This document shows, piece after piece, positions 33,925 through 47,359 of a DNA stretch of 64,000 nt; positions within the stretch are counted from its first letter, which is position 1, and each line of letters starts with the position of its first letter. Source of the stretch: Pirellulales bacterium (GTDB lineage: Bacteria > Planctomycetota > Planctomycetia > Pirellulales > Lacipirellulaceae); NCBI GenBank assembly GCA_028279215.1, contig JANQOF010000048.1:6533-70532 (forward strand). Direction: 5' to 3'. The translations under genes were made by a program, and so were the position numbers. The notes beneath the pieces are model-generated. The model did not search any database. It was not told the DNA's origin and was given only the letters and a program-made list of their open reading frames with translations.

Positions 33925-35610
33925 CTAAAGCTCGATCTTTCTAAATAGCGGAGCATGGCGGTAGTACACCTCCAGCGTGCAGGTGGCCATCACCGTCATG
34001 TATAGGCGGCCGCCCTGTCCGCCGTGCGGCGTATTGGGGTCCCAACTGCCGGCGGCGTGGCCGGTACGAACCTGCGTGGTCACCAGCGCGTCGGCCATCG
34101 CTTCGTTCCACTCGCGCCACTCGCGGCCACCCCAGTGGTGAAACAACTGAGTCGCGTAGTACCAATAGTAGATGTTCGGTTCGTGGATGTTCACCGGGTA
34201 TCGCCGCGCCAGCTCACGCACACCTCGCCGCAATCCGGGTTCGCTCTGCTTCCAACCAAGGTAGATGCGCGACAGCAGGCCCTCGGCAGTCATCGCAGGC
34301 GACGCCCGGTGGTCGGGCAGGTAGGCGTAGGTCGATCCGATTCGATCGGTTCGTACTTGATCGAGGAAGTCGTGTGCTCGCATCAATGCCGACGTTTCCA
34401 CCCGCAGCCCTGCGGCCCGCGCCGAATGAAGCGCCATGAGTTGCCAACCGGTGACGCTCAGATCTCCTCTATCGCCCGGCTGGTAACGCCATCCGCCGGC
34501 GTGGTGCTGGGCCGCAATCAAGAAGTTAACGGCCCTCTGCGCCGGATCGCGGAGCATTTCGTCGCCTGTCAGGGCATAAGCGTCGGCCAAAGCGATGGTC
34601 GCCAGCGCGTGCGCGTACATGCCGGCGTTTCGCGAGCTATCGGCCGCCAGGCTTCCGTTGCGGCGCTGCGCGGCGATTAGATACTGCAAGCCATGGCTCA
34701 CGCTGTTTCGGTACATTCCGGTGCGGTGGGTCTGGCCCGCACCGAGCATCGCCTGCAACACTAGTGCAGTCGCGCCCTCGTCGCTGCCCATGCTTCCTCG
34801 TCCTTGACAACGTCCGTCGCAGTCACCGGCGCGGTGAAATCGATCGAGTGACCAACTGCCGTCCGTGTGTTGATGCAGCGCCATCCACCGCAGCGCCCGG
34901 GCCACCGCGGCTTCGGTGAGGTTGGTGCCGCCTTCGGCTTCAAGCACCTGGCTGCGAATGCGCGGATCGCGTGCCGATAGCATACGGCGGTACCTATCGT
35001 CGGATTCCAGTGCGTCGGTCACTCGATCAAGTGGCGGCAGGTTGGGCGCGGCCGCTAGGTCTTCGATCGCCAATTGCTTGGCCCACTCTTCGGCTTCGAT
35101 TTCCTCCTGGCGCTGGGGCGAGTCGAGCGGCAACTCGAAGCCCACGGTCCGCAACCGATCGTCAACGAGTCCCCCTTCGCGTTCGTTCTTGTCAAACTCC
35201 ACCGACAGGTTGATGCTCGGGGTCTCGTCGGCCAGTTCACCCCATCCCAAAATGGCAAGCAGAATCAGCAACAACAGATGCGTGATTGTGCTCATTAGCA
35301 CCGAAAGCAGTTGGTGCAAACTTCGCCACATACGGCGCCTGCGCGACATGGCGATCGGCGGGGCGGTGATATCGATCCGCGGCGTATCGGTCACCTCCTG
35401 CGTGGAGGCTGGTCGTAGCGTCGCACGCTTCTTTCGCGGTGCGGGTTCAGCGATGGGCAAGAAGTCTAGCGCAATCGATGTGCCGCATCGCAGACAGTCT
35501 GCCGAACGCAACCACAGCCGAATCGACATCGGCATGCCACACGCCGGGCACGCACAGGCATCAACACCAGGGTCGAGCGTGGGAGTGGAAGAGTTGAGGA
35601 TCATAAGCAT
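33925..35610 (-). CDS. Membrane-anchored prenyltransferase/squalene-oxidase-repeat (alpha/alpha barrel) protein with N-terminal Cys4 ribbon
   Basis: CPACG..CLRCG, one TM helix, repeated QxxxGxW motifs (HQHTDGSW, AQHHAGGWRY, AAGSW), YYWYYATQ, LEVYYRH. Confidence 0.8.
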   Translation of the reverse strand: MLMILNSSTPTLDPGVDACACPACGMPMSIRLWLRSADCLRCGTSIALDFLPIAEPAPRKKRATLRPASTQEVTDTPRIDITAPPIAMSRRRRMWRSLHQLLSVLMSTITHLLLLILLAILGWGELADETPSINLSVEFDKNEREGGLVDDRLRTVGFELPLDSPQRQEEIEAEEWAKQLAIEDLAAAPNLPPLDRVTDALESDDRYRRMLSARDPRIRSQVLEAEGGTNLTEAAVARALRWMALHQHTDGSWSLDRFHRAGDCDGRCQGRGSMGSDEGATALVLQAMLGAGQTHRTGMYRNSVSHGLQYLIAAQRRNGSLAADSSRNAGMYAHALATIALADAYALTGDEMLRDPAQRAVNFLIAAQHHAGGWRYQPGDRGDLSVTGWQLMALHSARAAGLRVETSALMRAHDFLDQVRTDRIGSTYAYLPDHRASPAMTAEGLLSRIYLGWKQSEPGLRRGVRELARRYPVNIHEPNIYYWYYATQLFHHWGGREWREWNEAMADALVTTQVRTGHAAGSWDPNTPHGGQGGRLYMTVMATCTLEVYYRHAPLFRKIEL

Positions 35611-36324
35611 CGCCGAATGGTTGGCGAGAGTCTCCTATTGTATCCCGGCATGAATACGCATGGCGACATTGTGGCCGAGATCGATTACTACGTACGCTAG
35701 TCACCAAAGTGTTCGCTGCTGGCGGTGTAAGCTCTTCCACATGTGCGATAACAGCGGATAGTACGCCAATTCAGCCGTAAGGCAAACTGCCAACCGCCAC
35801 GCGGACCGCTGCCCGTGCTTATCTACCTTGCGGTGGCCAAAGCGGTCGAATAAGCTAGCGGTTGGGATGAAATGAGAGGAATGCGTTCCGTCACCGCCCA
35901 TTGAAGGGCGGAGGGGATGCCCACGCTATCGAGCACGCGCGCCGACGGTCTGACCGTGCAGATCATTGATGGGGACAAGGTCGACCTGCCCCGAGAGGTC
36001 GGCTCAGGCTAATGTAGGTGCGACGCGTCGACTACGACGCCATGCTTAAGACCGGGCCGACTTCCAGGAACGAAACCGCAGGCATGGTGGCGATTGCTCC
36101 GCGAGGTCTTGCGACGCGGCAATCGGCACCACCTCGCGGGCGCAGCCGATCTGAGGTCTTGGGCGGGCAGTTAACTCGCAGCCGCCAAGCCAAGCGTGAA
36201 CTATGCTGAATGAGGCGTGCAACACGCTATGCAAACAGCGTCCTAACCGCCTTAAGCAGCATTGTTCTCGCCCGCCTCGACAAGCATTGGCAACGCTTTA
36301 TTGCATCTCTAAGACGAGACCGCC

Positions 36325-37539
36325 ATGGAAATCAACAAAGAACAGATCGACCGCATCGTTACCGATGTTCTCAGCAAGATGAATCCGAACACGTGCGGCA
36401 CGGCGCCAAGCGACAGCGCCCCTCCCCCGAAGACAGCGCGGGCGGCAGTGCTCCAGTCGGCGCGTAAACTGGAAATCGTCGAGTTTCCGCTGCGCGACAT
36501 CGCGCGTGACGAGATCCTTGTGCGCGTCGAAGCGTGCGGCGTGTGCGGCACCGACATCCACTGCTACAAGTCGGACCCGTTCAACCTCGCGCCGCTCGTT
36601 CTCGGACACGAAGGCACCGGGGAAGTCATTGCTGTCGGGTCCGACGTCAGGATCGACAGCGTCGGCAAACCGATCCGCGTGGGCGACAAGGTGGTGACAA
36701 GCATATTGGATGCGACCGAAGCCTGCATGATCGCGAAGTACAACCCGCTGAAGGCGAACCTCTGCGACGACCTCAGCGTGTACGGACTACTGCGCGATGA
36801 GCCGGACAACCACTTCAATGGGTACTTTGGCGAGTACCTGATTATCCGTGGCGGGTCGTCCGTGTTTGTTGTGAACGACATGAGCGTCGACCTGCGGTGC
36901 CTGATCGAGCCGGCCGCGGTGGTGTGCCACGCTTTGGAACGCGCCAAAAATTGTGGCTCGGCGCTCAACTTCCGCACGCGCGTCGTCGTGCAGGGTTGTG
37001 GACCGATCGGGCTGTTGATGATCGCCGTGCTACGCACCTACGGCGTGAACAACATCATCGCGATCGACGGCGACCACAGCCGGCTAGCGATGGCCCAGAC
37101 GCTCGGCGCCGACCACCTAATCAACTACAAGGACTACGCCGGGGTCGACGACATGGCCGCCAAAGTCGAGTCGCTAACCAAGGGCCTCGGCGCGCACTTC
37201 GGCTTCCAGGTGACCGGCGTTCCGCTCGCGTTCGCCAACCTGTTCAAGTGCATCCGCCGCGGTGGCGGCATCTGTGAGGTCGGACACTTTGTCGATGGCG
37301 GCGAGTGCGCTATCAACCCTCACCACGATATCTGCCGCAAGGAGATTACGCTGATCGGGAGTTGGGTCTACAACAGCGTCGAGTACCCCAACGCGTACCA
37401 CTTCCTGCAACGCGCCGAACGAATCGGGCTGCCGATTACCTCACTCATTACGCACAAGTTTCCACTCGATCAAATCGAGCAGGCGTTCGAAGTGAACCTG
37501 CGACAAGAAGGGGTCAAAGTTGTGGTGGAAACACGGTGA
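36325..37539 (+). CDS. Zinc-dependent (MDR) alcohol dehydrogenase with N-terminal encapsulation-peptide-like helix
   Basis: CGVCGTD, LGHEGTG, IEPAAV, VQGCGPIG; N-terminal MEINKEQIDRIVTDVLSKM plus a Pro/Ser linker. Confidence 0.88.
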   Translation: MEINKEQIDRIVTDVLSKMNPNTCGTAPSDSAPPPKTARAAVLQSARKLEIVEFPLRDIARDEILVRVEACGVCGTDIHCYKSDPFNLAPLVLGHEGTGEVIAVGSDVRIDSVGKPIRVGDKVVTSILDATEACMIAKYNPLKANLCDDLSVYGLLRDEPDNHFNGYFGEYLIIRGGSSVFVVNDMSVDLRCLIEPAAVVCHALERAKNCGSALNFRTRVVVQGCGPIGLLMIAVLRTYGVNNIIAIDGDHSRLAMAQTLGADHLINYKDYAGVDDMAAKVESLTKGLGAHFGFQVTGVPLAFANLFKCIRRGGGICEVGHFVDGGECAINPHHDICRKEITLIGSWVYNSVEYPNAYHFLQRAERIGLPITSLITHKFPLDQIEQAFEVNLRQEGVKVVVETR

Positions 37540-37716
37540 ACGCGATGCTTCTTGAAACGGCCAACGCTGGTCTGCTTGGAGTGCGAGTTGATCTCAGATC
37601 CAACAAGTGCCCGAAAACGCACTCGGGTCGACAGCCGCTCCGCACGTTGTGATTAGCCCCTCAAACGGCTAAAATACGGGCTTCGAAACTCTCCTTTCCT
37701 CCAAGGATGATCCACC

Positions 37717-40413
37717 GTGGCGGACGACCCAAACGTACCGAACGAGCCCGAGGAAAATGCTGGCGAAAGCCAGAGCCCTGAAGAGGCAGCGATTGCTGCT
37801 CGGTTGATCGATCTGCCTATTGAGGACGAGCTAAAGGACAGCTATCTGACGTATGCGATGAGCGTGATCGTCAGTCGCGCGCTACCCGACGTGCGCGACG
37901 GGCTGAAGCCCTCGCAGCGGCGGATTTTGGTCGCCATGAACGACCTGAATCTCGGCCCCGGCGCTGCCCGCGTGAAGTGCGCCAAGATCTCTGGCGATAC
38001 CAGCGGCAACTACCATCCGCACGGCGAAAGCGTCATCTATCCCACGCTAGTCCGCATGGCCCAAGAATGGAACATGCGGAACGTACTGATCGACAAGCAG
38101 GGCAACTTCGGCAGCGTTGCAGGCCTGCCTCCAGCGGCCATGCGATACACTGAGGCTCGGCTGTCGCCCGTAGCGTCAATGATGCTCGAGGACCTGAAGC
38201 TAGATACGGTCGACTTCGTCCCGACGTACGACGAACGGCACACCGAACCGGTCGTACTGCCTAGCAAGTTCCCGAACCTGTTGGTCAACGGCTCGGGTGG
38301 CATCGCCGTAGGCATGGCCACCAGCATTCCGCCACACAATTTGAAGGAGGTATGTTCCGGTGTAATTGCGCTAATTGACGACCCAGAGATTTCGATCGGC
38401 GGATTGATGGAGCACATCACTGGGCCCGACTTCCCAACCGGTGGCATCATCTGCGGCAAGAGTGGCATTCTCAAAGGTTACCAGACCGGTCGCAGCACCG
38501 TGGTGGTCCGGTCGCGGACGAGCATCGACGAGGCCGGCAAGAAAGCGCGGATTGTCGTGCACGACATCCCCTACCAGCAAACACGCGACGCGATGGTCAA
38601 GAAGATCGCGACGCTCGCCAGCGACGGCAAAGTGCCCGGCATAAGCGACGTCCGCGACGAGAGTGACTTGAAAGAACCGGTGCGGATCGTCATCGAACTC
38701 AAGCGCGACGGCGACCCCGACGTCGTACTCAACCAGCTCTACAAGTACTCGCCGCTGCAAGACACGTTCAGCGTAATCTTCCTCGCGCTGGTCGACGGCA
38801 AGCCACGAGTGCTGAACCTCAAGGAGATGCTGCAGGAGTTCGTTCGTCACCGCGTGACGGTGATCCGCCGGCGGACACAGTTCCTGCTCGCCCGGGCACG
38901 GCGCCGCAAGCACACGGTGCAGGGCCTGTTACTCGCGCATGCGAACATCGACGAAGTGATCCGCGTGATTCGGGCTTCGAAGACGCAGCCCGAGGCGAAA
39001 CGAGCCTTGATGAAGATCAAAACGCCAGGCGCGCTGCTAAAGCGGGCGCTGGGCGACGAGGGGTTTGCCCAATTCCAGGACGAGCGTGGTGTGGCTGAGG
39101 AATACTCGCTAACGCCGGTGCAGGCCGATGCCATCTTGAAGATGACGCTCGGCCAGCTGGTAAACCTTGAGCAAGAGAAGCTTGCCGACGAGCATGCCCA
39201 ACTGCTGAAGCAGATCGCTGAGTACGTGTCGATCCTCGCCGACGAAGCCCGTATCTACGCGATGATCCGCGACGACATGGAAGAGTTAATGAACTCGCGC
39301 CATGCCGACGTCCGGCGTACCGAAGTCTCCGACGAGGAGATTGGCGAAGTGAACATGGAAGACCTCATCGAAGAAGAAACGATGGTGGTTTCCATTTCGC
39401 ACAACGGTTACATCAAGCGAACGCCGGCCAGCACCTATCGCGCCCAGCGACGCGGCGGCAAAGGGATCAAAGGAGCGACCGTCGACGACGACGACCCCGT
39501 CGAACATCTGTTTGTCACCAGCACGCACGACTATTTGCTGTTCTTCACCAACCACGGCAAAGTCTACTGGCAGAAGGTTTACAACCTGCCGGCATTGTCG
39601 CGCGAAAGCAAGGGACGCGCGGTCGTGAATCTGCTCAACCTGGCCGAAGGTGAAAAGATTGCTGATTGCCGGGCAATCCGCGACTTCGGCCTGCCCGACC
39701 ACTACTTGATGATGGCCACGCGCCAAGGCCTGGTGAAAAAGACCGAACTGAAGGCCTACAGCCGACCCATGAAGACCGGCATCATCGCCATCAAATTGAA
39801 AGATGGTGACGAGCTGGTCGACGTGGTGGTCACCAAGCCCGGCGACGAAATCTTGCTCGCCACCGCCTCTGGTATGGCCATCCGCTTCAGCGAGGCCGAC
39901 GCTCGCCCAATGGGCCGCAATACATCGGGCGTTAAAGGAATCAACCTGATAAAGGGCGATTCACTAGCCGGCATGGTCGTCGCCGACCCAGAGGCCACGC
40001 TGCTAACCGCCACCGAACACGGATTTGGCAAACGGACGCCATTCGGGCCTAATTCTTCCGGTGATTCCCCGCCCACAGACGGGGAAGGGGCCAACGACGC
40101 TGAAGACGAAGCCTCCAGCAGCTTTAAGTACCGGACGCAAAATCGAGGCGGCAAGGGGCTCCGCGACATCAAGACGACCGAGCGAAACGGCCCCGTCATC
40201 GGCATCACGCGTGTGACCGACGAAGACGAACTGTTGATGATGACTGCCCGCGGAAAGATTCAACGGATCAAGGCCAGCGACATCGGCACCATCGGCCGCA
40301 ACACGCAGGGGGTGAATATCATGACCCTCGGCGACGACGACACGCTTACCGCCATCGTCCGCGTACCGGCCGAGGAACGGGATGACGAAGCCGGCGCGGA
40401 AGCGGAAGTGTGA
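37717..40413 (+). CDS. gyrA: DNA gyrase subunit A
   Basis: [28 protein letters not shown], GyrA box QRRGGKG, beta-pinwheel repeats. Confidence 0.97.
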
Positions 40414-41511: not shown

Positions 41512-42474
41512 CTAGCAGCACCGTGATCGAACGATACACCGAGTGCCGGACCGGCTTTTCACTCCAGCCGCCAGCAACACGGCGCCGACAACTATTGCCC
41601 ATGCGGACGGCTCGGGCGTTGATAGCAACTCAATGGATGCTGCCGCACCACCGAATGTTAGCACGCCACTGGGTTCTCCGAAGTTGAATAGTACCGTATT
41701 GAAGTCGTCTAGGTCGACTAATTCATCGCCGTCGAAGTTTCCACGTTCCCAGTTGCGGCTTTCGCCAAAATTGAATAGGACTTGGCCAAAGTCGTCCAGG
41801 CTGACAGAGCCTACCAGATCGGCATCACCAGGGGTGGCGGTGTAGATAGCCGACCCTGCCACGCCTATCTGGTCCTTAAACGAACCAGTTTGGGCAACCG
41901 CGCCATGCGTGGTGCCAGGAGAGCCGCCGGCGTCGTAGGCACCACGCCAAGTAATCGTTACCGTGTTGGTTACGCCGGGCACGGCGAGACTCAGCGGGGC
42001 TGTTTCAATTGTCAATGCCTCGAAGGAGTTCGACACGTCGACCAAGCTGTCACTTGCGAAATAGGCGCTCTCTAACGAAGCGAACACGTTGCTAGGGTCA
42101 CTGCCTATCTGCACACCAACGATATCTCCTAACGAATCAGGGGTCTCGTTACCGAAGAACGACTGACCAGGTATTTCGGTGCCGAAGTTCGCAGCGTTCT
42201 TGTTCGCCACAACGGCTGGGTTGCCGCCGCCTAAATCGAAGCCAATGTCGATGGCGGTCGTGGCCCCACGGACACCTGCGTTCTCGCCCGAATCGGGCGT
42301 GTCAAATCGCGACTCGTCGGGATCGACGCTAATGGTCCACACCAGACCATTGTTGGTGAGCGTAGGACTCCTGCCACCACCTACCAAGTCAACGGTGAGC
42401 GTCGGCTGGGCGGTCACGGCGGTCGCTAACACTATGCACAGCCCGGCAGTATAGGTGATGTTCGCCCAAGACAT
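41512..42474 (-). CDS. PEP-CTERM protein with a dockerin-like Ca-binding repeat pair (paralog A)
   Basis: Signal peptide; GDADLVGSVSLDDF..GNFDGDELVDLDDF; C-terminal TPEPSAWAIVVGAVLLAAGVKSR. Confidence 0.82.
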   Translation of the reverse strand: MSWANITYTAGLCIVLATAVTAQPTLTVDLVGGGRSPTLTNNGLVWTISVDPDESRFDTPDSGENAGVRGATTAIDIGFDLGGGNPAVVANKNAANFGTEIPGQSFFGNETPDSLGDIVGVQIGSDPSNVFASLESAYFASDSLVDVSNSFEALTIETAPLSLAVPGVTNTVTITWRGAYDAGGSPGTTHGAVAQTGSFKDQIGVAGSAIYTATPGDADLVGSVSLDDFGQVLFNFGESRNWERGNFDGDELVDLDDFNTVLFNFGEPSGVLTFGGAAASIELLSTPEPSAWAIVVGAVLLAAGVKSRSGTRCIVRSRCC

Positions 42475-42561: not shown

Positions 42562-43713
42562 TTATATACCCGCACCCCGTCGCCAATGCTCACGACGACG
42601 CGTTGCTAGCGCCATCGCAACCGAGGCACCGACACCGAGAATCCAAGTCGCTGGCTCGGGAATCAGAGTCTTAAGACCAACAACAGCGACAGTGGCGCCA
42701 AAATTGGCTTTCCAGATGGCAAAATCGCCTGCATCAACGGTTCCGCTGGCATCGCCGCCGCCTTGCAAGAAATCCTCGACTCCCCCAAGGAAATCTCTCC
42801 AGATCGAAACATCAGCCAAACCAACCAGCCCGTCCCCATTGAAGTCGCCCTCAAGCCCTGGCGCAACAATCCCCACCGTGAACGCTGGGCCCGCTGCGGC
42901 ACCCCCGAACGTCAGCACTCCACTTGGCTCCAAGAAGTTGAACAACACGGAATTCAAATCATCGAGGTCTGTGGTTGCATTCCCGTCGAAGTTACCTTCT
43001 TCCCACGAGGTTCCACTGAGAAAGTTGAACAGCACCGTATTGAGATCGTCGAGATCTACGCCACCGGTAAGGTCAGCATCGCCCGGAGTTGCCGTGTAGG
43101 TAGCTGATCCAGCAACGCCGATTTGGTCGTCGAACGATCCTCCTTGGGCAAGTGCGCCGTGAGTCGAACCTGGAAGTCCATTCGCGTCGTAGGCACCGCC
43201 CCATGTGATACTCACAGTGTTTGTAACGCCTGGAATACTCAGACTTAATGGTGCAGTTTGAATCGTCAGTGCTTCGAACACGCCGGACCCACCGTCGGTA
43301 AAGTAAACACTTCCAAGTGACGCAAAAACATTGGACGGATCGTCTCCAATCTGCACGCCAATGAAAGCGCCCTCGCCGTCCGGAGTTTCATCACCGAATG
43401 TCGACAAGCCCGGTAGGTTGGTATCGAAGTTCGACGAGTTCCTGCTGGCTGCGACGGCAAGGTTGCCACCGCTCAAGTCGAATCCAATATCCAATGCCGT
43501 TGACGCTCCATTGACTCCAGCATTGTCGCCCGAATCTGGGGTGTCGAACAAAGCTTCATCCGGATCGACACCGATCGTCCAAACCAGTCCGCCGTCGACA
43601 AGCACCGGAGCGCCACCGCCTACCAGATCCACCGTAAGTGCCGGTTGCGCCGTAGCTGAGTATGCTAACAGCACGAACAAGATAGCGCTGCAACCAAATC
43701 TGACGCTGCACAT
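42562..43713 (-). CDS. PEP-CTERM protein with two dockerin-like repeat pairs (paralog B)
   Basis: Signal peptide from ATG 43713; GDADLTGGVDLDDL..GNFDGNATTDLDDL and GDFNGDGLVGLADV..GDASGTVDAGDFAIWKANFG; IPEPATW..RRR. Confidence 0.85.
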   Translation of the reverse strand: MCSVRFGCSAILFVLLAYSATAQPALTVDLVGGGAPVLVDGGLVWTIGVDPDEALFDTPDSGDNAGVNGASTALDIGFDLSGGNLAVAASRNSSNFDTNLPGLSTFGDETPDGEGAFIGVQIGDDPSNVFASLGSVYFTDGGSGVFEALTIQTAPLSLSIPGVTNTVSITWGGAYDANGLPGSTHGALAQGGSFDDQIGVAGSATYTATPGDADLTGGVDLDDLNTVLFNFLSGTSWEEGNFDGNATTDLDDLNSVLFNFLEPSGVLTFGGAAAGPAFTVGIVAPGLEGDFNGDGLVGLADVSIWRDFLGGVEDFLQGGGDASGTVDAGDFAIWKANFGATVAVVGLKTLIPEPATWILGVGASVAMALATRRREHWRRGAGI

Positions 43714-44064
43714 GCGAAATCTCCATTCTGGACAAAGTGTTGAGACGAACGCTAACCAGATAGCTTTGAACACAGCCCGACATCACGCCGATGGGGACTT
43801 GAGACCAACCAGCCGGCGAAGTTCTTGTGCGCTGGTAGTTTCCACATAATACCCCCATTCCCTTGTGGCATCAGAGAGATATGCCTGCCAACCCGCGTAG
43901 CAACCTAATTGAAACCGCCCCATTGTTGCGACATTTTCGCGCCGATCCCGGTGCCTGTCAAGCTTGCAATCACCTGAATAAGATTGCCGTCTTCGTGCGT
44001 CGGTGTGGTGCATTCACGTTAGCACCAATTCTCGTACGGCATGTCTATCGTGCGAAAACCACGC

Positions 44065-44616: not shown

Positions 44617-44845
44617 TGCGTGGGTCTCCACGAGAGAAAAGAAATGCAGGCACGCACGTGGACTCACAGTGTAACCGACCAGCCATCATGAACGCCAGCT
44701 AACATTGCTGACCCGTGTACACCGATCTTGAGTCCACGCGCGAAATCAACCGAGAGATGAGTCCGACTGTTGATCGTTGGGGCAGAATGTCCTACAACGC
44801 ACTTTCGCGCGGCAGGCTCTCTTTTCTCTAGGTCGGACTCGATCG

Positions 44846-45712
44846 ATGAACGAAAACAAGAATCTCCCCCACCCTTCCGATGCGTTGCATGCCTGGGAAG
44901 AATTCATCGAAGAACACGTATACGCTGATCCAGACTCGAACGCAAAGCAGAACTATCGCAACTACAATAATCCGGCCCGCGAAACCGTGCGCGAGTTCTA
45001 CCGGCAGAATCATCTTTACCAAACCTACGAATTCGTCGACCAGAAGCGTGATCAGTTCCTCGGGCTGTCGCGGGCCAAAATGACGCCTTTTGCAGCGTTG
45101 GACTATCTCAACACTCTGGTTGACGACTCGGATCCCGATACCGAGCTTGACCAATTGCAGCACTTGCTGCAGACCGCCGAAGCCATTCGCGCCGATGGTC
45201 GTGAACGTTGGTTCGTTTTGGCTGGGCTGATGCACGACTTGGGCAAGGTGTTGTGCTTGTATGGCGAGCCACAATGGGCGGTGGTCGGCGATACCTTTCC
45301 GGTCGGATGCAAGTTCAGTGACCGGATTGTTTACTCCGAGTTCTTCGAATCGAATCCTGATTCGGACGATCCTCGATACAACACCCAAGATGGTGTTTAC
45401 GCATCAAACTGTGGACTACGCAACGTTCGCATGTCGTGGGGCCACGACGAGTACATCTATTACGTACTGCGCGACTATTTGCCCGAACCAGCGCAATACA
45501 TGCTTCGCTACCACTCGTTCTACGCTTGGCATCGAGAAAGCCAGTACGATTGGCTGTGCGACGACCACGATCGCGAGATGCTCCGCTGGGTACAGGAGTT
45601 CAATCAGTACGATCTCTATAGCAAGTGTCCCACACCACCCAACTGGCAGGCGCTTCGGCCGTATTACACGAATTTGATCGAAGAGTTCCTACCGAGTGAA
45701 CTTGCTTTCTAG
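44846..45712 (+). CDS. miox: Myo-inositol oxygenase (MIOX, HD-type di-iron)
   Basis: QNYRNY, FYRQNHLYQT, HLLQTAEAIR, LMHDLGKVL, QWAVVGDTFPVGC, SWGHDEY, RYHSFY, DLYSK. Confidence 0.92.
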   Translation: MNENKNLPHPSDALHAWEEFIEEHVYADPDSNAKQNYRNYNNPARETVREFYRQNHLYQTYEFVDQKRDQFLGLSRAKMTPFAALDYLNTLVDDSDPDTELDQLQHLLQTAEAIRADGRERWFVLAGLMHDLGKVLCLYGEPQWAVVGDTFPVGCKFSDRIVYSEFFESNPDSDDPRYNTQDGVYASNCGLRNVRMSWGHDEYIYYVLRDYLPEPAQYMLRYHSFYAWHRESQYDWLCDDHDREMLRWVQEFNQYDLYSKCPTPPNWQALRPYYTNLIEEFLPSELAF

Positions 45713-45742: not shown

Positions 45743-47359
45743 ATGGTTTCACTGCTATCGTTCCTGGCCTACACGGCGCTCGTTGCTGTCGTCGCCTGGA
45801 TGCTCACGAAGCGCGAGACGCTCTCGACTTCGGAAGGCTATTTTCTTGCTGGCCGCAGTTTGAATGGTTGGGTGATCGCCGGGTCGCTGATACTAACGAA
45901 CCTGTCGTCGGAACACTTGATCGGCCTGAATGCCGACGCCTACACGCATACGATTGCCGTGATGGCCTGGGAAACCACTTCGGCGCTGGCCATGGTGCTA
46001 ATGGCGCTTTATTTCTTGCCACGCTATTTGCGCCGCGGGCTCACTACCATTCCCGAGTTTCTTGAACAGCGGTACGACGCCGATACGCGGCTGTTGGCCT
46101 CCTTGCTGTTTCTGCTGTCGTATTCGTTTGCCATCCTGCCGATTGTGCTCGTGTTTGGGGCAACCGGCCTGGAGAGCATTTTTGACGTCTCAGAGACGTG
46201 GAACGTTGATCGCGATGCCGCTCGATGGATGTTGGTATGGGGGGTGGGCACCTTGGGAGCTCTTTACGCCATTTTGGGCGGCCTTCGGGCGGTCGCCATC
46301 TCCGATACGGTCAACGGCGTCGGTTTCTTGATGATTGGTCTGCTCGTACCGGTGCTGGCCTTGCGACTTATTGGCGATGGCAATGTGTGGCAAGGATTGG
46401 TCACGGTCTATGAGGCGAACCCTGAGAAGTTCGACATCACGGGCGACGAGCCGAAGTCGTTTCTGCCGATGAGCGTCTTGTTCACGGGATTGATCATCAA
46501 CCAGGTCTTTTTCTGGTGCACCAATCAATCGATCGCGCAGCGTGCGCTAGCGGCTCGCAGCCTGGCTGAGGGCCAGAAGGGTGTGTTGATCGCTGCGATG
46601 TTCAAGCTGCTTGGCCCGTTGGTGATTGTGCTGCCTGGGGTGCTTGCTTTTCATTTGTTCTACAGCGAGTTGGGCGACGATGGCGCCATGTTGGCCTATC
46701 CGCGACTGGCAGAACTCGTGCTGCCGCCGGTGTTGACAGGCTTTTTCGCTGCCGTGGTCGTGGGGGCCATTCTGAGCACTTTTAACAGCGTGCTGAACAG
46801 TTCGGCAACGCTATTTAGCCAGGGGATCTGTCGTCGTCTGCGACCGAAAGCAACCGACCGGCAATTAGTCCGCGCCGGCCGCGTGTGCAGTGTGCTTCTG
46901 GCGGTCGCTGCGATGACCGCGGCTCCCATGATCGACACCGAGGGCAGCCTGTACGAGCTGTTGCAGCGCATCAATGCTACGTTCTTCGGCCCAATGTTGG
47001 CCGTGATTCTACTCGGCATGCTGACTCGTTGGGCGACACCGCTGAGCGCCAAAGTGGTGCTGATTGGTGGCCCGATCGCCTACTACGCATCGGTCTTAGG
47101 TTGGGGCGAACGAGTGCAAGAATTCTTGACAAGCGCATTAGGAGCGTCCGAAGACATCCATTTTCTTCACATCCTGGGCGCTGTGTTCGTTTTGTCGGTT
47201 TTCGCCATGCGGCTCATCAGCGCCCTCGCGCCGAGGAACTACATCGAGCAACTGCCAGAAGAGCAATTCGTCGACATGACGCCCTGGCGGTGGGCGGTAC
47301 CAGCAAGCGTGGCGGTTTCGGCAGTGACGATCGGTTGCTATTTGTTGCTTGCCAGGTGA
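45743..47359 (+). CDS. Solute:sodium symporter (SSS) family transporter
   Basis: EGYFLAGRSL, TNLSSEHLIG, YAILGGLRAV..SD, FWCTNQSIAQRALAA, STFNSVLNSSATLF. Confidence 0.92.
   Translation: MVSLLSFLAYTALVAVVAWMLTKRETLSTSEGYFLAGRSLNGWVIAGSLILTNLSSEHLIGLNADAYTHTIAVMAWETTSALAMVLMALYFLPRYLRRGLTTIPEFLEQRYDADTRLLASLLFLLSYSFAILPIVLVFGATGLESIFDVSETWNVDRDAARWMLVWGVGTLGALYAILGGLRAVAISDTVNGVGFLMIGLLVPVLALRLIGDGNVWQGLVTVYEANPEKFDITGDEPKSFLPMSVLFTGLIINQVFFWCTNQSIAQRALAARSLAEGQKGVLIAAMFKLLGPLVIVLPGVLAFHLFYSELGDDGAMLAYPRLAELVLPPVLTGFFAAVVVGAILSTFNSVLNSSATLFSQGICRRLRPKATDRQLVRAGRVCSVLLAVAAMTAAPMIDTEGSLYELLQRINATFFGPMLAVILLGMLTRWATPLSAKVVLIGGPIAYYASVLGWGERVQEFLTSALGASEDIHFLHILGAVFVLSVFAMRLISALAPRNYIEQLPEEQFVDMTPWRWAVPASVAVSAVTIGCYLLLAR

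What the first reader, a model, noticed from the sequence alone, without database searches (positions are those of the whole stretch)
36325..37539. Orphan alcohol dehydrogenase carrying a bacterial-microcompartment encapsulation-peptide-like helix
Seen: residues 1-19 (MEINKEQIDRIVTDVLSKM) form an amphipathic helix with an I..IV..VL pattern, joined by a Pro/Ser linker (NPNTCGTAPSDSAPPP) to an MDR dehydrogenase lacking the full structural 4-Cys site. No shell genes are in the window. Established: such helices target enzymes to BMC lumens, and planctomycetes use PVM microcompartments for fucose/rhamnose catabolism. From memory, unverified: the sequence resembles the Zn-ADH of Firmicute fucose/rhamnose BMC loci, and PVM core loci lack an ADH. 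Inference: a satellite, possibly horizontally acquired enzyme that adds an aldehyde-to-alcohol NAD+-recycling branch to the planctomycete microcompartment.
Basis: partly seen in the sequence, partly recalled or inferred. Interest (0 to 1): 0.75.

Follow-up and report, generated by a model that had tools for sequence, protein, structure and literature searches.

The report
Microcompartment-targeted alcohol dehydrogenase, horizontally acquired
This gene encodes a zinc alcohol dehydrogenase with a short N-terminal "address tag" that most likely sends it into the cell's fucose/rhamnose-degrading protein organelle; the tagged enzyme family is already known from gut Clostridia, but here it is a stray gene this planctomycete lineage picked up from other bacteria and inserted next to gyrA.

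Summary
Window 36325-37539(+) encodes a 404-aa Zn-dependent MDR dehydrogenase with an N-terminal helix (residues 5-18), a disordered Pro/Ser linker and a degenerate structural-zinc lobe.

The genome carries one canonical PVM microcompartment locus on another contig.

Evidence that the helix is an encapsulation peptide:
- It is conserved in 111 of 119 homologs, while the linker is hypervariable.
- It is the best real protein terminus in the genome when scored with the published GRM5 Zn-ADH EP profile.
- Orthologs are the last gene of PVM operons in 7 of 35 loci.
- All 35 ortholog-bearing genomes have shell genes.
- An untagged sister subfamily occurs only in shell-less genomes (0 of 30, against 4 of 4 for tagged copies).

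The gene is absent from all 40 nearest relatives. In three congeners the same site, between a conserved gene and gyrA, is empty, so this is a roughly 2-kb horizontal insertion. Its closest relatives are Pirellulaceae copies nested among Verrucomicrobiota.

Its closest relatives outside its own clade include GRM5/PVM-like BMC-locus ADHs (about 50% identity, same architecture).

The likely role, L-lactaldehyde reduction with NAD+ recycling in the lumen, is inferred and was not tested.

Verdict: a new member of a known kind, of moderate interest.

The parts
36325..37539 (+). Gene for a 404-aa Zn-dependent MDR alcohol dehydrogenase with an N-terminal encapsulation peptide (P0001)
   Evidence: ORF and translation; Pfam ADH_N, ADH_zinc_N and Glu_dehyd_C; orthologs at 61-82% identity only in Planctomycetota and Verrucomicrobiota
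36337..36378 (+). Encapsulation-peptide helix, residues 5-18 (KEQIDRIVTDVLSK; hydrophobic face I8, I11, V12, V15, L16, plus M19)
   Evidence: AF2 helix at 5-18; motif kept in 111 of 119 homologs; 13.6 bits with the published GRM5 Zn-ADH EP profile, the best real protein terminus in the genome; a profile of other organisms' ADH helices picks the PVM PTAC and PvmL N-termini as 2nd and 4th hits genome-wide
36382..36432 (+). Poorly conserved Pro/Ser/Ala linker, residues 20-36
   Evidence: Hypervariable in sequence and length among homologs; pLDDT below 50 at residues 20-28; not aligned to any solved MDR structure
36433..37536 (+). Catalytic MDR domain, residues 37-404: catalytic Zn ligands C71/H95/E96/E195, GCGPIG 224-229, D248 (NAD-type), degenerate structural-Zn lobe (only C134 and C147)
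35596..37631 (.). Lineage-specific inserted segment of about 2.0 kb: the ADH plus 714 bp of upstream DNA. It replaces about 300 bp in congener L060 (more in L062 and L064)
   Evidence: Homology to three same-genus genomes ends at about 35583-35595 and resumes at about 37632-37639; in those genomes unk561 and gyrA are adjacent with gaps of 361, 489 and 1150 bp
33925..35610 (-). Left flank: conserved 561-aa protein with weak prenyltransferase/squalene-cyclase-like repeats, native to the genus
   Evidence: 68-80% identical and syntenic in congeners; Pfam
37717..40413 (+). Right flank: gyrA, native to the genus. This shows the contig is not a binning artefact
   Evidence: 86-91% identical to six same-genus genomes

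Best explanation
The gene encodes an NAD(H)-dependent, zinc-containing medium-chain alcohol dehydrogenase whose first ~19 residues form an encapsulation peptide. That peptide recruits the enzyme into the lumen of the genome's PVM-type bacterial microcompartment, which is encoded about 8 kb long on another contig.

Inside the compartment the class II aldolase releases L-lactaldehyde from fuculose-/rhamnulose-1-phosphate. The acylating aldehyde dehydrogenase oxidises part of it to lactyl-CoA and makes NADH. This ADH most likely reduces another part to 1,2-propanediol and so regenerates NAD+ inside the shell. It is the same job proposed for its ~50%-identical, equally tagged homolog in GRM5 microcompartments.

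The gene is not part of this lineage's inherited PVM locus. It is an accessory cargo module that moves between Verrucomicrobiota and Planctomycetota. Here it was inserted as a ~2-kb segment between a conserved gene and gyrA.

Shown: the architecture, family relationships, association with BMC loci and shell genes, and the insertion. Inferred: physical encapsulation, the substrate, and the direction of the reaction.
For: Architecture: helix 5-18, disordered linker, then the MDR fold.

EP signature: the helix is conserved in 111 of 119 homologs while the linker is hypervariable.

Published profile: log-odds from Sutter 2021's EP HMM 'HMM00107alcdh_1_grm5.GRM5' give 13.6 bits, rank 3 of 4.83 million genome positions and the best real terminus.

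Cross-match: a profile of other organisms' ADH helices ranks the PVM PTAC N-terminal EP 2nd and the PvmL N-terminus 4th among 41,240 ORFs. 12 of 120 family members score at least 10 bits with a PTAC-EP profile, always at the N-terminus.

Locus association: in 7 of 35 ortholog loci the ADH is the last, co-directional gene of a complete PVM operon, in both phyla. L-rhamnose isomerase is immediately upstream in two further loci, L041 and L014.

Phyletic pattern: 35 of 35 ortholog-bearing genomes have BMC-H. In 201 Verrucomicrobiota, tagged copies are 4 of 4 BMC-P-positive and the untagged 50-55% sister is 0 of 30 (Fisher p = 2e-5). In 5 of 6 sister genes an in-frame stop lies 5-9 codons before the domain.

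Homology: a GRM5/PVM-like BMC-locus ADH is 51% identical with the same architecture.

Cofactor and catalysis: catalytic Zn ligands and the NAD-type Asp248 are invariant.

Literature: PvmO was assigned the recycling role only because it was the sole candidate in the locus (PMC4207490). Here PvmO has no terminal extension.

HGT: absent from 40 of 40 relatives, 29 of which have shell genes; empty site in three congeners; nested in a 99/96-supported, otherwise verrucomicrobial group.
Against: The reciprocal test fails for this particular copy: a profile of PVM PTAC EPs does not report the window's ADH at all.

The helix's hydrophobic moment is unexceptional.

The tag evolved with other hosts' shells, and its fit to this Aeoliella-like shell is untested.

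The enzyme is dispensable for PVM function in general. It is absent from all 107 other BMC-positive genomes in the Planctomycetota sample and from 37 of 41 BMC-positive Verrucomicrobiota.

The substrate is unassigned: all NCBIfam equivalogs fall far below cut-off, and the nearest structures are threonine, sorbitol and butanediol dehydrogenases, which act on secondary alcohols.

No motif shared with the PVM promoter regions was found, and no sigma-70-like promoter upstream of the ADH.
Confidence: 0.72

Rival explanations
1. The enzyme is targeted to the microcompartment but does a different job from NAD+ recycling by lactaldehyde reduction. For example, it could oxidise 1,2-propanediol to lactaldehyde, acting as a second aldehyde-generating entry enzyme. 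Or it could act on another small carbonyl or polyol such as glycolaldehyde, hydroxyacetone or methylglyoxal-derived species.
For: The nearest characterised MDRs act on secondary alcohols and polyols. No equivalog model reaches its cut-off. PvmO co-occurs with the ADH in the same operons, so the two are not simple alternatives. Most PVM organelles work without this ADH.
Against: An NAD+-consuming entry enzyme would worsen the lumen's cofactor balance. The 50%-identical GRM5 homolog sits in a pathway where lactaldehyde-to-propanediol reduction is the proposed step (PMC4207490). Rhamnose isomerase, rhamnulokinase-type FGGY kinase and aldolase are the recurrent neighbours.
Confidence: 0.17
2. This is a cytosolic polyol/threonine-type dehydrogenase, annotated in databases as L-iditol 2-dehydrogenase. 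Its N-terminal helix serves oligomerisation or regulation and has nothing to do with the microcompartment.
For: In this genome the gene lies in a housekeeping neighbourhood (FtsH, gyrA). The helix's amphipathicity is not exceptional. The PTAC-EP profile does not hit this copy.
Against: The helix tracks shell genes perfectly (4 of 4 against 0 of 30; 35 of 35). Orthologs sit inside PVM operons. The helix matches a published BMC EP profile better than any other real protein terminus in the genome. The homologous GRM5/PVM-like ADH carries the same tag.
Confidence: 0.05
3. The gene is a recently acquired passenger that is silent or mismatched in this host: it is not expressed with the PVM operon, or its tag does not bind the resident shell. 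It would then have no role in the organelle here even though it has one in other hosts.
For: It was inserted away from the DeoR-controlled operon, with 714 bp of foreign upstream DNA. No shared promoter motif was found and no recognisable sigma-70 promoter. It is absent from all congeners.
Against: The ORF is intact and every family-invariant residue is retained. DNA identity to all other copies is only 70-77% and composition matches the host (GC 0.606 against 0.585). That implies long residence under purifying selection rather than a fresh, decaying insert.
Confidence: 0.06

Closest known systems
EP-tagged Zn-dependent (PF00107/PF08240) alcohol dehydrogenase of GRM5 and GRM5-like fucose/rhamnose microcompartments (Axen 2014, PMC4207490; EP HMMs 'HMM00107alcdh_1_grm5.GRM5' and '.GRM5like' in Sutter 2021, PMC8217296, Suppl. 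Data 5)
   Same: Full-length homology (P0242 at 51%, others at 46-50%). Identical architecture of N-terminal helix, Ala/Pro/Ser linker and MDR core. The same helix pattern I-x-x-I-V-x-x-V-L-x-x-M. A structural-Zn lobe that has lost cysteines. Association with a class II aldolase BMC. The two fall in one 100/100-supported superclade.
   Different: It is a separate clade (99/98) restricted to Planctomycetota and Verrucomicrobiota. It is associated with the aerobic PVM organelle, which has no glycyl-radical diol dehydratase, so any propanediol made is an end product and not an intermediate. Here the gene is unlinked from any shell gene. Its EP score with the GRM5 profile is much lower (13.6 bits against 37-42).
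PvmO, the lactate/malate-dehydrogenase-family protein of the PVM locus, predicted to be the PVM 'AlcDH' (Erbilgin 2014 as cited in PMC4207490)
   Same: Both are candidates for NADH-dependent recycling in the same organelle. Both are encoded at the 3' end of PVM operons, with the ADH immediately after PvmO in L018 and L028.
   Different: The fold is unrelated (Ldh_1_N/C against MDR). In this genome PvmO has no terminal extension (310 aa, Pfam domains covering 1-308), whereas the ADH has a canonical tag. PvmO is found in the model cluster and in the loci examined here, while the ADH is sporadic.
PduQ / EutG, the iron-containing (PF00465) alcohol dehydrogenases of PDU and EUT microcompartments
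   Same: The proposed role is the same: internal NAD+ regeneration by reducing the pathway aldehyde to its alcohol.
   Different: They belong to a different enzyme superfamily. No obvious EP was found on them, and piggy-backing on the aldehyde dehydrogenase has been proposed instead (PMC4594438).
TM0436 Zn-ADH of Thermotoga maritima (PDB 1VJ0) and the threonine/sorbitol/butanediol dehydrogenase branch of the MDR superfamily
   Same: Closest solved fold (TM-score 0.81-0.90, E = 1e-34), with the same catalytic Zn ligand set.
   Different: These have no N-terminal extension, 1VJ0 has an intact four-Cys structural zinc site, they are not BMC-associated, and identity is only 22-28% in the structural alignments.

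Membership tests
Medium-chain (Zn) dehydrogenase/reductase superfamily | GroES-like ADH_N domain plus Rossmann-type ADH_zinc_N domain | tested here: met
   PF08240 at 59.1 bits (cut-off 23.5) and PF00107 at 86.5 bits (cut-off 31.8); fold match to 1VJ0, TM-score 0.81-0.90
Medium-chain (Zn) dehydrogenase/reductase superfamily | Catalytic zinc ligands (Cys, His-Glu, Glu) and GxGxxG with an acidic residue for NAD(H) | tested here: met
   C71, H95, E96, E195, G224-G229 and D248 are present and invariant across 56 family members. Their assignment as ligands rests on established MDR knowledge, not on a structure of this protein
Medium-chain (Zn) dehydrogenase/reductase superfamily | Structural zinc site of four cysteines (present in many but not all MDRs) | tested here: not met
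   Only C134 and C147 remain of the C-x2-C-x2-C-x7-C seen in 1VJ0 and in the untagged sister P0248; this lobe has low pLDDT. The site is not obligatory for membership, since mammalian sorbitol dehydrogenase also lacks it
BMC encapsulation peptide (Kinney 2012 / Aussignargues 2015 definition) | [quoted passage not shown] | tested here: met
   AF2 helix at 5-18 and linker at 20-36 with low confidence; helix conserved and linker hypervariable
BMC encapsulation peptide (Kinney 2012 / Aussignargues 2015 definition) | Amphipathicity of the helix | tested here: inconclusive
   Hydrophobic positions show the i, i+3, i+4, i+7, i+8 pattern, but the hydrophobic moment of 0.52 is only the 85th percentile of native N-termini
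BMC encapsulation peptide (Kinney 2012 / Aussignargues 2015 definition) | Extension present on BMC-associated homologs and absent from non-BMC homologs | tested here: met
   Tagged copies 4 of 4 BMC-P-positive against 0 of 30 for the untagged sister; an in-frame stop precludes a tag in 5 of 6 sister genes; 35 of 35 ortholog-bearing genomes have BMC-H
BMC encapsulation peptide (Kinney 2012 / Aussignargues 2015 definition) | Match to a published EP profile | tested here: met
   13.6 bits with positions 5-16 of Sutter 2021's GRM5 Zn-ADH EP HMM; the best real protein terminus among 4.83 million positions. This was an ungapped log-odds scan of the match emissions, not a full HMMER run
BMC encapsulation peptide (Kinney 2012 / Aussignargues 2015 definition) | Peptide is sufficient or necessary for targeting to shells | not testable with these tools
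   Needs reporter fusion, co-purification or microscopy
GRM5-type EP-tagged Zn-ADH | Full-length homology with the tagged Zn-ADH encoded in aldolase/DUF336/BMC-H loci | tested here: met
   P0242 at 51% identity over residues 4-401; its context is Aldolase_II - HbpS-like - ADH - BMC-H - BMC-H; common superclade at 100/100
GRM5-type EP-tagged Zn-ADH | Encoded in a locus with a glycyl-radical diol dehydratase (this defines GRM5) | tested here: not met
   This genome's only BMC locus is the PVM type (DeoR, PTAC, 2 BMC-H, AckA, 3 BMC-P, AldDH, PvmL, aldolase, PvmO), and no glycyl-radical enzyme lies in it. The window's protein belongs to a distinct PVC clade. It is therefore a homolog, not a GRM5 member
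PVM microcompartment gene set (pvmABDEGHIJKLMNO) | Gene encoded within the PVM locus | tested here: not met
   Here the gene is on contig C49 next to gyrA, while the locus is on C55. The published cluster ends at pvmO (PMC11958385). Orthologs are in-locus in 7 of 35 cases
PVM microcompartment gene set (pvmABDEGHIJKLMNO) | Co-occurrence with PVM shell genes in the same genome | tested here: met
   Own genome; 35 of 35 ortholog genomes

The most novel reading that the evidence does not exclude
In those PVM organelles that carry it, this tagged Zn-ADH, and not the untagged Ldh/Mdh-like PvmO, is the luminal NAD+ recycler. That would make the organelle a lactaldehyde dismutase yielding lactate and 1,2-propanediol, and would free PvmO for a cytosolic role.

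The module is also a self-contained, mobile 'plug-in' cargo. Because its address tag is recognised across PVM shells, and perhaps GRM5 shells, a single gene transferred between phyla and landing anywhere in the chromosome can rewire a resident organelle. Within one planctomycete family (Lacipirellulaceae) it appears as two different clades: in-locus in L028 and next to gyrA here.
Probability: 0.4. Interest if true: 0.6.

Novelty: new member of a known kind. Interest (0 to 1): 0.45.

Why it matters
[quoted passage not shown] A 2015 survey found no obvious encapsulation peptide on BMC alcohol dehydrogenases (PMC4594438).

This gene shows that some Planctomycetota and Verrucomicrobiota equip the PVM organelle with a properly tagged Zn-ADH homologous to the GRM5 enzyme. 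It is sometimes the last operon gene and sometimes an unlinked satellite.

Three practical consequences follow:
1. Locus-based BMC catalogues miss such cargo.
2. Pairs of closely related organisms with and without the ADH (for example this genome against Aeoliella mucimassa-like congeners) are a natural experiment on what a reductive branch does for fucose/rhamnose and fucoidan degradation, and on whether 1,2-propanediol is released.
3. A tag that apparently works after transfer between phyla is useful for engineering cargo loading.

The enzyme family and its tag are already catalogued for GRM5, so this extends known biology and does not overturn it.

Tried and rejected
1. Reverse profile test. 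An HMM of 116 PVM PTAC N-terminal EPs from other organisms recovers this genome's PTAC (18.2 bits) but does not report the window's ADH. It hits only about 10-16% of ADH family members at 8-10 bits or more. The ADH-PTAC similarity is therefore one-directional for this copy, and I do not count it as reciprocal evidence.

2. Hydrophobic moment as a stand-alone statistic: not significant.

3. Co-regulation. A search for k-mers shared between the ADH's 714-bp upstream region and the PVM, DeoR and FGGY promoter regions gave only one 10-mer, which is uninformative. The sigma-70 scan found no + strand site upstream of the ADH.

4. Donor tracing by DNA. Similarity to all 34 other copies is confined to the ORF at 70-77%, so no donor and no transferred flank could be identified. 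GC and GC3 are not anomalous.

5. Substrate from the context of the untagged sister subfamily. The contexts are mixed: one locus has RhaA, glycerate kinase, GH4 and AraC, and the others are housekeeping. This is only a weak hint.

6. Recurrent neighbours of satellite copies are sulfatases (8 loci) and hom/thrC (subdivision 3). Sulfatases are so abundant in these phyla that this is not evidence.

7. The first tree used outgroups at 30% identity or less and could not be rooted. It was replaced by trees with the 52% sister and the GRM5 clade. Even so, the order of the three clades, and hence whether the tag has one or two origins, is unresolved (82/76).

8. Erbilgin 2014 (PMC3993161) is not held, so statements about it come from papers that cite it.

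10. A possible PvmL-like domain at the N-terminus of Opitutales aldolases: BLASTP E = 0.1, not supported.
Full report
**1. The observation**

Window 36325-37539(+) is an intact 404-aa ORF. It starts at the first possible ATG, because an in-frame stop lies four codons upstream.

Pfam finds the two MDR alcohol-dehydrogenase domains from residue 61 onward. No NCBIfam equivalog comes near its cut-off: the best is 148 bits against a cut-off of 328. All solved relatives align only from about residue 38.

An AlphaFold2 model built on 56 homologs (mean pLDDT 83.5) shows a separate helix at 5-18, a low-confidence linker, and the MDR fold from residue 37. Its nearest folds are TM0436 (1VJ0) and threonine, sorbitol and butanediol dehydrogenases.

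The catalytic ligands C71, H95, E96 and E195 and the NAD-type D248 are invariant in the family. The structural-zinc lobe keeps two of four cysteines. The window holds no shell genes.

**2. The organelle**

The genome (4.56 Mb, 83 contigs) has one BMC locus, on contig C55 at roughly 85.1-93.2 kb. Its gene order is:

DeoR - PTAC - BMC-H - BMC-H - acetate kinase - BMC-P - aldehyde dehydrogenase - BMC-P - 95-aa protein - BMC-P - class II aldolase - Ldh/Mdh-like

An FGGY kinase and L-rhamnose isomerase lie alongside. This matches the published pvmABDEGHIJKLMNO cluster, which ends at pvmO (PMC11958385; PMC8217296 supplement).

The locus enzymes carry the expected tags:

| Protein | Position | Peptide |
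|---|---|---|
| PTAC | N-terminus | TDIERIVREIVQRQF |
| AldDH | N-terminus | LRSVIAQVLAEV |
| PvmL-position protein | N-terminus | EQLEWIVSEVVRRL |
| Aldolase | C-terminus | EAIVQQITSRVLEAL |

PvmO has no extension.

**3. Is the ADH helix an encapsulation peptide?**

*Conservation pattern.* Of 119 homologs at 69-82% identity, all from Planctomycetota or Verrucomicrobiota where named, 111 keep [ED][QD]I-x-RIV-x-[ED]V[ILVM]. The linker that follows varies freely in sequence and length.

*Published profile.* Sutter 2021's Supplementary Data 5 contains EP HMMs for the Zn-ADH of GRM5 (197 sequences) and GRM5-like loci. A log-odds matrix built from its match states 5-16 scores IDRIVTDVLSKM at 13.6 bits. 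That is rank 3 of 4.83 million positions in the genome's six-frame ORFs. Rank 1 is internal to a thioredoxin-like protein, and rank 2 is an off-frame, Arg/Cys-rich pseudo-ORF.

*Cross-match within the genome.* An HMM built from other organisms' ADH helices finds this ADH first (17.3 bits), the PVM PTAC N-terminus second (12.1 bits) and the PvmL-position N-terminus fourth (9.2 bits) among 41,240 ORFs.

*Caveats.* The converse PTAC-derived profile does not report this ADH, and hits only 12 of 120 family members at 10 bits or more. Amphipathicity alone is unremarkable.

**4. Association with the organelle**

Thirty-five orthologous loci (61-82% identity) were recovered from named genomes. In seven the ADH is the last, co-directional gene of a complete PVM operon, immediately after the aldolase and the Ldh/Mdh-like gene. 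Those seven are Puniceicoccaceae (two), Coraliomargarita, Pelagicoccus, Oceanipulchritudo, an Opitutales MAG, and a Lacipirellulaceae MAG. In two further loci, L041 and L014, L-rhamnose isomerase lies immediately upstream of the ADH.

All 35 genomes have BMC-H genes.

In an even sample of 201 Verrucomicrobiota there are two classes:

| ADH class | Genomes | BMC-P-positive |
|---|---|---|
| Tagged (67-74% identity, aligned from residue 1-3) | 4 | 4 |
| Untagged sister (50-55% identity, aligned from about residue 35) | 30 | 0 |
| Whole sample | 201 | 41 |

Fisher's exact test gives p = 2e-5. In five of six sister genes an in-frame stop lies 5-9 codons before the domain, so a tag cannot exist there. 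These counts are not phylogenetically corrected.

**5. Relationship to known BMC ADHs**

Earlier notes from this scan claimed that GRM5/PVM-like loci encode a tagged ~404-aa Zn-ADH, so I tested that claim. An exhaustive search of 1.84 billion cluster representatives returns P0242: 406 aa, 51% identical over residues 4-401, beginning MNNSDIEAIVKQVIAGM followed by an Ala/Pro/Ser linker. It also returns several similar proteins at 46-50%.

P0242 is encoded between class II aldolase, a DUF336/HbpS-like gene and two BMC-H genes. Its contig is from a metagenome and its phylum was not determined.

On a catalytic-domain tree, three groups form one superclade (100/100): the PVC tagged clade (99/98), the GRM5-type tagged clade (100/100) and the untagged sister (82/94). 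Their branching order is unresolved (82/76). The shared helix pattern I-x-x-I-V-x-x-V-L-x-x-M suggests a common origin of the tag, but that is an inference.

The stored part of the published EP-HMM set has no PVM entry for this ADH; its only PVM entry there is for PvmL. The catalogue's PVM text does not mention a Zn-ADH.

**6. Origin of this copy**

The PTAC's closest named relative is Aeoliella mucimassa, and its contig length equals that of congener G341. The genome is therefore an Aeoliella-like member of the Lacipirellulaceae.

- None of 40 nearest relatives has an ortholog: six are same-genus, and 29 of the 40 have shell genes. Their best hits are paralogs at 37% identity or less, without the tag.
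- None of 300 other sampled Planctomycetota has it, although 106 of them have BMC-H.
- The neighbouring GyrA is 86-91% identical to congeners, so the contig is native.
- In three congeners the 561-aa gene and gyrA are adjacent, with gaps of 361, 489 and 1150 bp. In the window, homology breaks at about 35595 and resumes at about 37632, enclosing the ADH and 714 bp upstream.
- Composition is host-like, and DNA identity to other copies is 70-77% within the ORF only. The transfer is therefore not recent, and the donor has not been sampled.
- Phylogenetically the copy groups with Pirellulaceae (Rubripirellula, Rhodopirellula, Novipirellula, Aporhodopirellula; 96-98% support). That group is nested in an otherwise verrucomicrobial group (97/96 and 99/96). 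It is separate from the in-locus copy of the Lacipirellulaceae MAG L028, whose PVM proteins are the closest to this genome's (BMC-H 94%, AldDH 88%).
- Planctomycetota appear in three places on the tree, which implies repeated transfer.

**7. Mechanism**

*Shown:* a tagged, catalytically intact, NAD-type MDR dehydrogenase whose family is bound to aldolase-type microcompartments.

*Inferred:* the tag recruits it into the PVM lumen. There it reduces L-lactaldehyde, released by the aldolase, to 1,2-propanediol. This regenerates NAD+ for the acylating aldehyde dehydrogenase, as proposed for the GRM5 homolog (PMC4207490) and, for a different enzyme family, shown for PduQ (cited in PMC4594438).

Most PVM genomes lack this enzyme, so it is an accessory branch and not a core part. 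The untagged PvmO may do something else, but that was not tested.

**8. Verdict**

This is a new member of a known kind. The tagged BMC Zn-ADH is already catalogued for GRM5; here it occurs in a PVM host as a horizontally inserted, unlinked cargo gene. Interest is moderate.

Noticed in passing
G000 contig C55, about 80.7-93.2 kb (locus L006 9172-17129, minus strand): A complete PVM locus whose gene order equals pvmA,B,D,E,G,H,J,K,L,M,N,O. An FGGY (rhamnulokinase-type) kinase is convergent at its 3' end, and L-rhamnose isomerase lies at C55:80732-81976.
   Followed up: yes
L006 11333-11620 (-), the 95-aa protein at the PvmL position: It has an EP-like N-terminus (EQLEWIVSEVVRRL) and no Pfam hit at E <= 0.001. 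Sutter 2021 files PvmL under PF02441 'Flavoprotein' HMMs and publishes a PVM EP HMM for it. The 95-aa size and lack of a Pfam hit suggest a scaffold-like remnant rather than an enzyme.
   Followed up: partly
L006 10141-11274 (-), class II aldolase: The longest ORF (377 aa, GTG start) overlaps the upstream BMC-P gene. The Pfam domain starts at residue 101, and the L028 ortholog is 286 aa. The true start is probably the MMNVHR methionine, which would give about 285 aa. The C-terminal tag (EAIVQQITSRVLEAL) is preceded by a Pro/Ala/Ser linker.
   Followed up: partly
Verrucomicrobiota genomes G381-G562 (e.g. L066-L071): An untagged sister subfamily of the ADH (50-55% identity, about 370 aa, intact four-Cys structural zinc site) occurs in 30 of 201 sampled Verrucomicrobiota. 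All 30 lack BMC-P genes. One copy lies near rhaA, glycerate kinase, a GH4 glycosidase and an AraC regulator.
   Followed up: partly
L013, L018, L019 (Opitutales PVM loci), e.g. L018 8865-9860: The Ldh/Mdh-family gene between the aldolase and the ADH in these Opitutales loci (331 aa) did not match the planctomycete PvmO by tblastn at 1e-8, and it clusters separately. 'PvmO' may therefore be two non-orthologous recruitments of the same fold.
   Followed up: no
G000 contig C73 4229-4453 (+): A small ORF (66 aa from its first Met) ends in DIQRIVDEALKEED. It is the third-best genome-wide hit to the ADH-helix profile (9.3 bits). No BMC genes are nearby, so this is probably chance.
   Followed up: partly
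window 41512-42474 (-) and 42562-43773 (-): Two adjacent paralogous secreted-looking proteins share long near-identical stretches (QPxLTVDLVGGG..., FNFGE..., dockerin-like DGD repeats) and a C-terminal PEP-type hydrophobic anchor. Not analysed with tools.
   Followed up: no
window 44777-45712 (+) and 45743-47359 (+): By eye these are an HD-domain protein resembling myo-inositol oxygenase followed by a sodium:solute symporter, possibly a small inositol- or sugar-acid-related unit. Not checked with tools.
   Followed up: no
Representative proteins P0257 (381 aa, 35%) and P0301 (383 aa, 28%): These are more distant MDR relatives that also start with EP-like helices (CDEIVKQVVSEI; LDEIIKEVIADT). 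They have altered catalytic motifs: GKEGTG or GTDGTG instead of GHEGTG, and no CGxCGxD. They may be catalytically dead, tagged ADH-like scaffold proteins. Their context was not examined.
   Followed up: no
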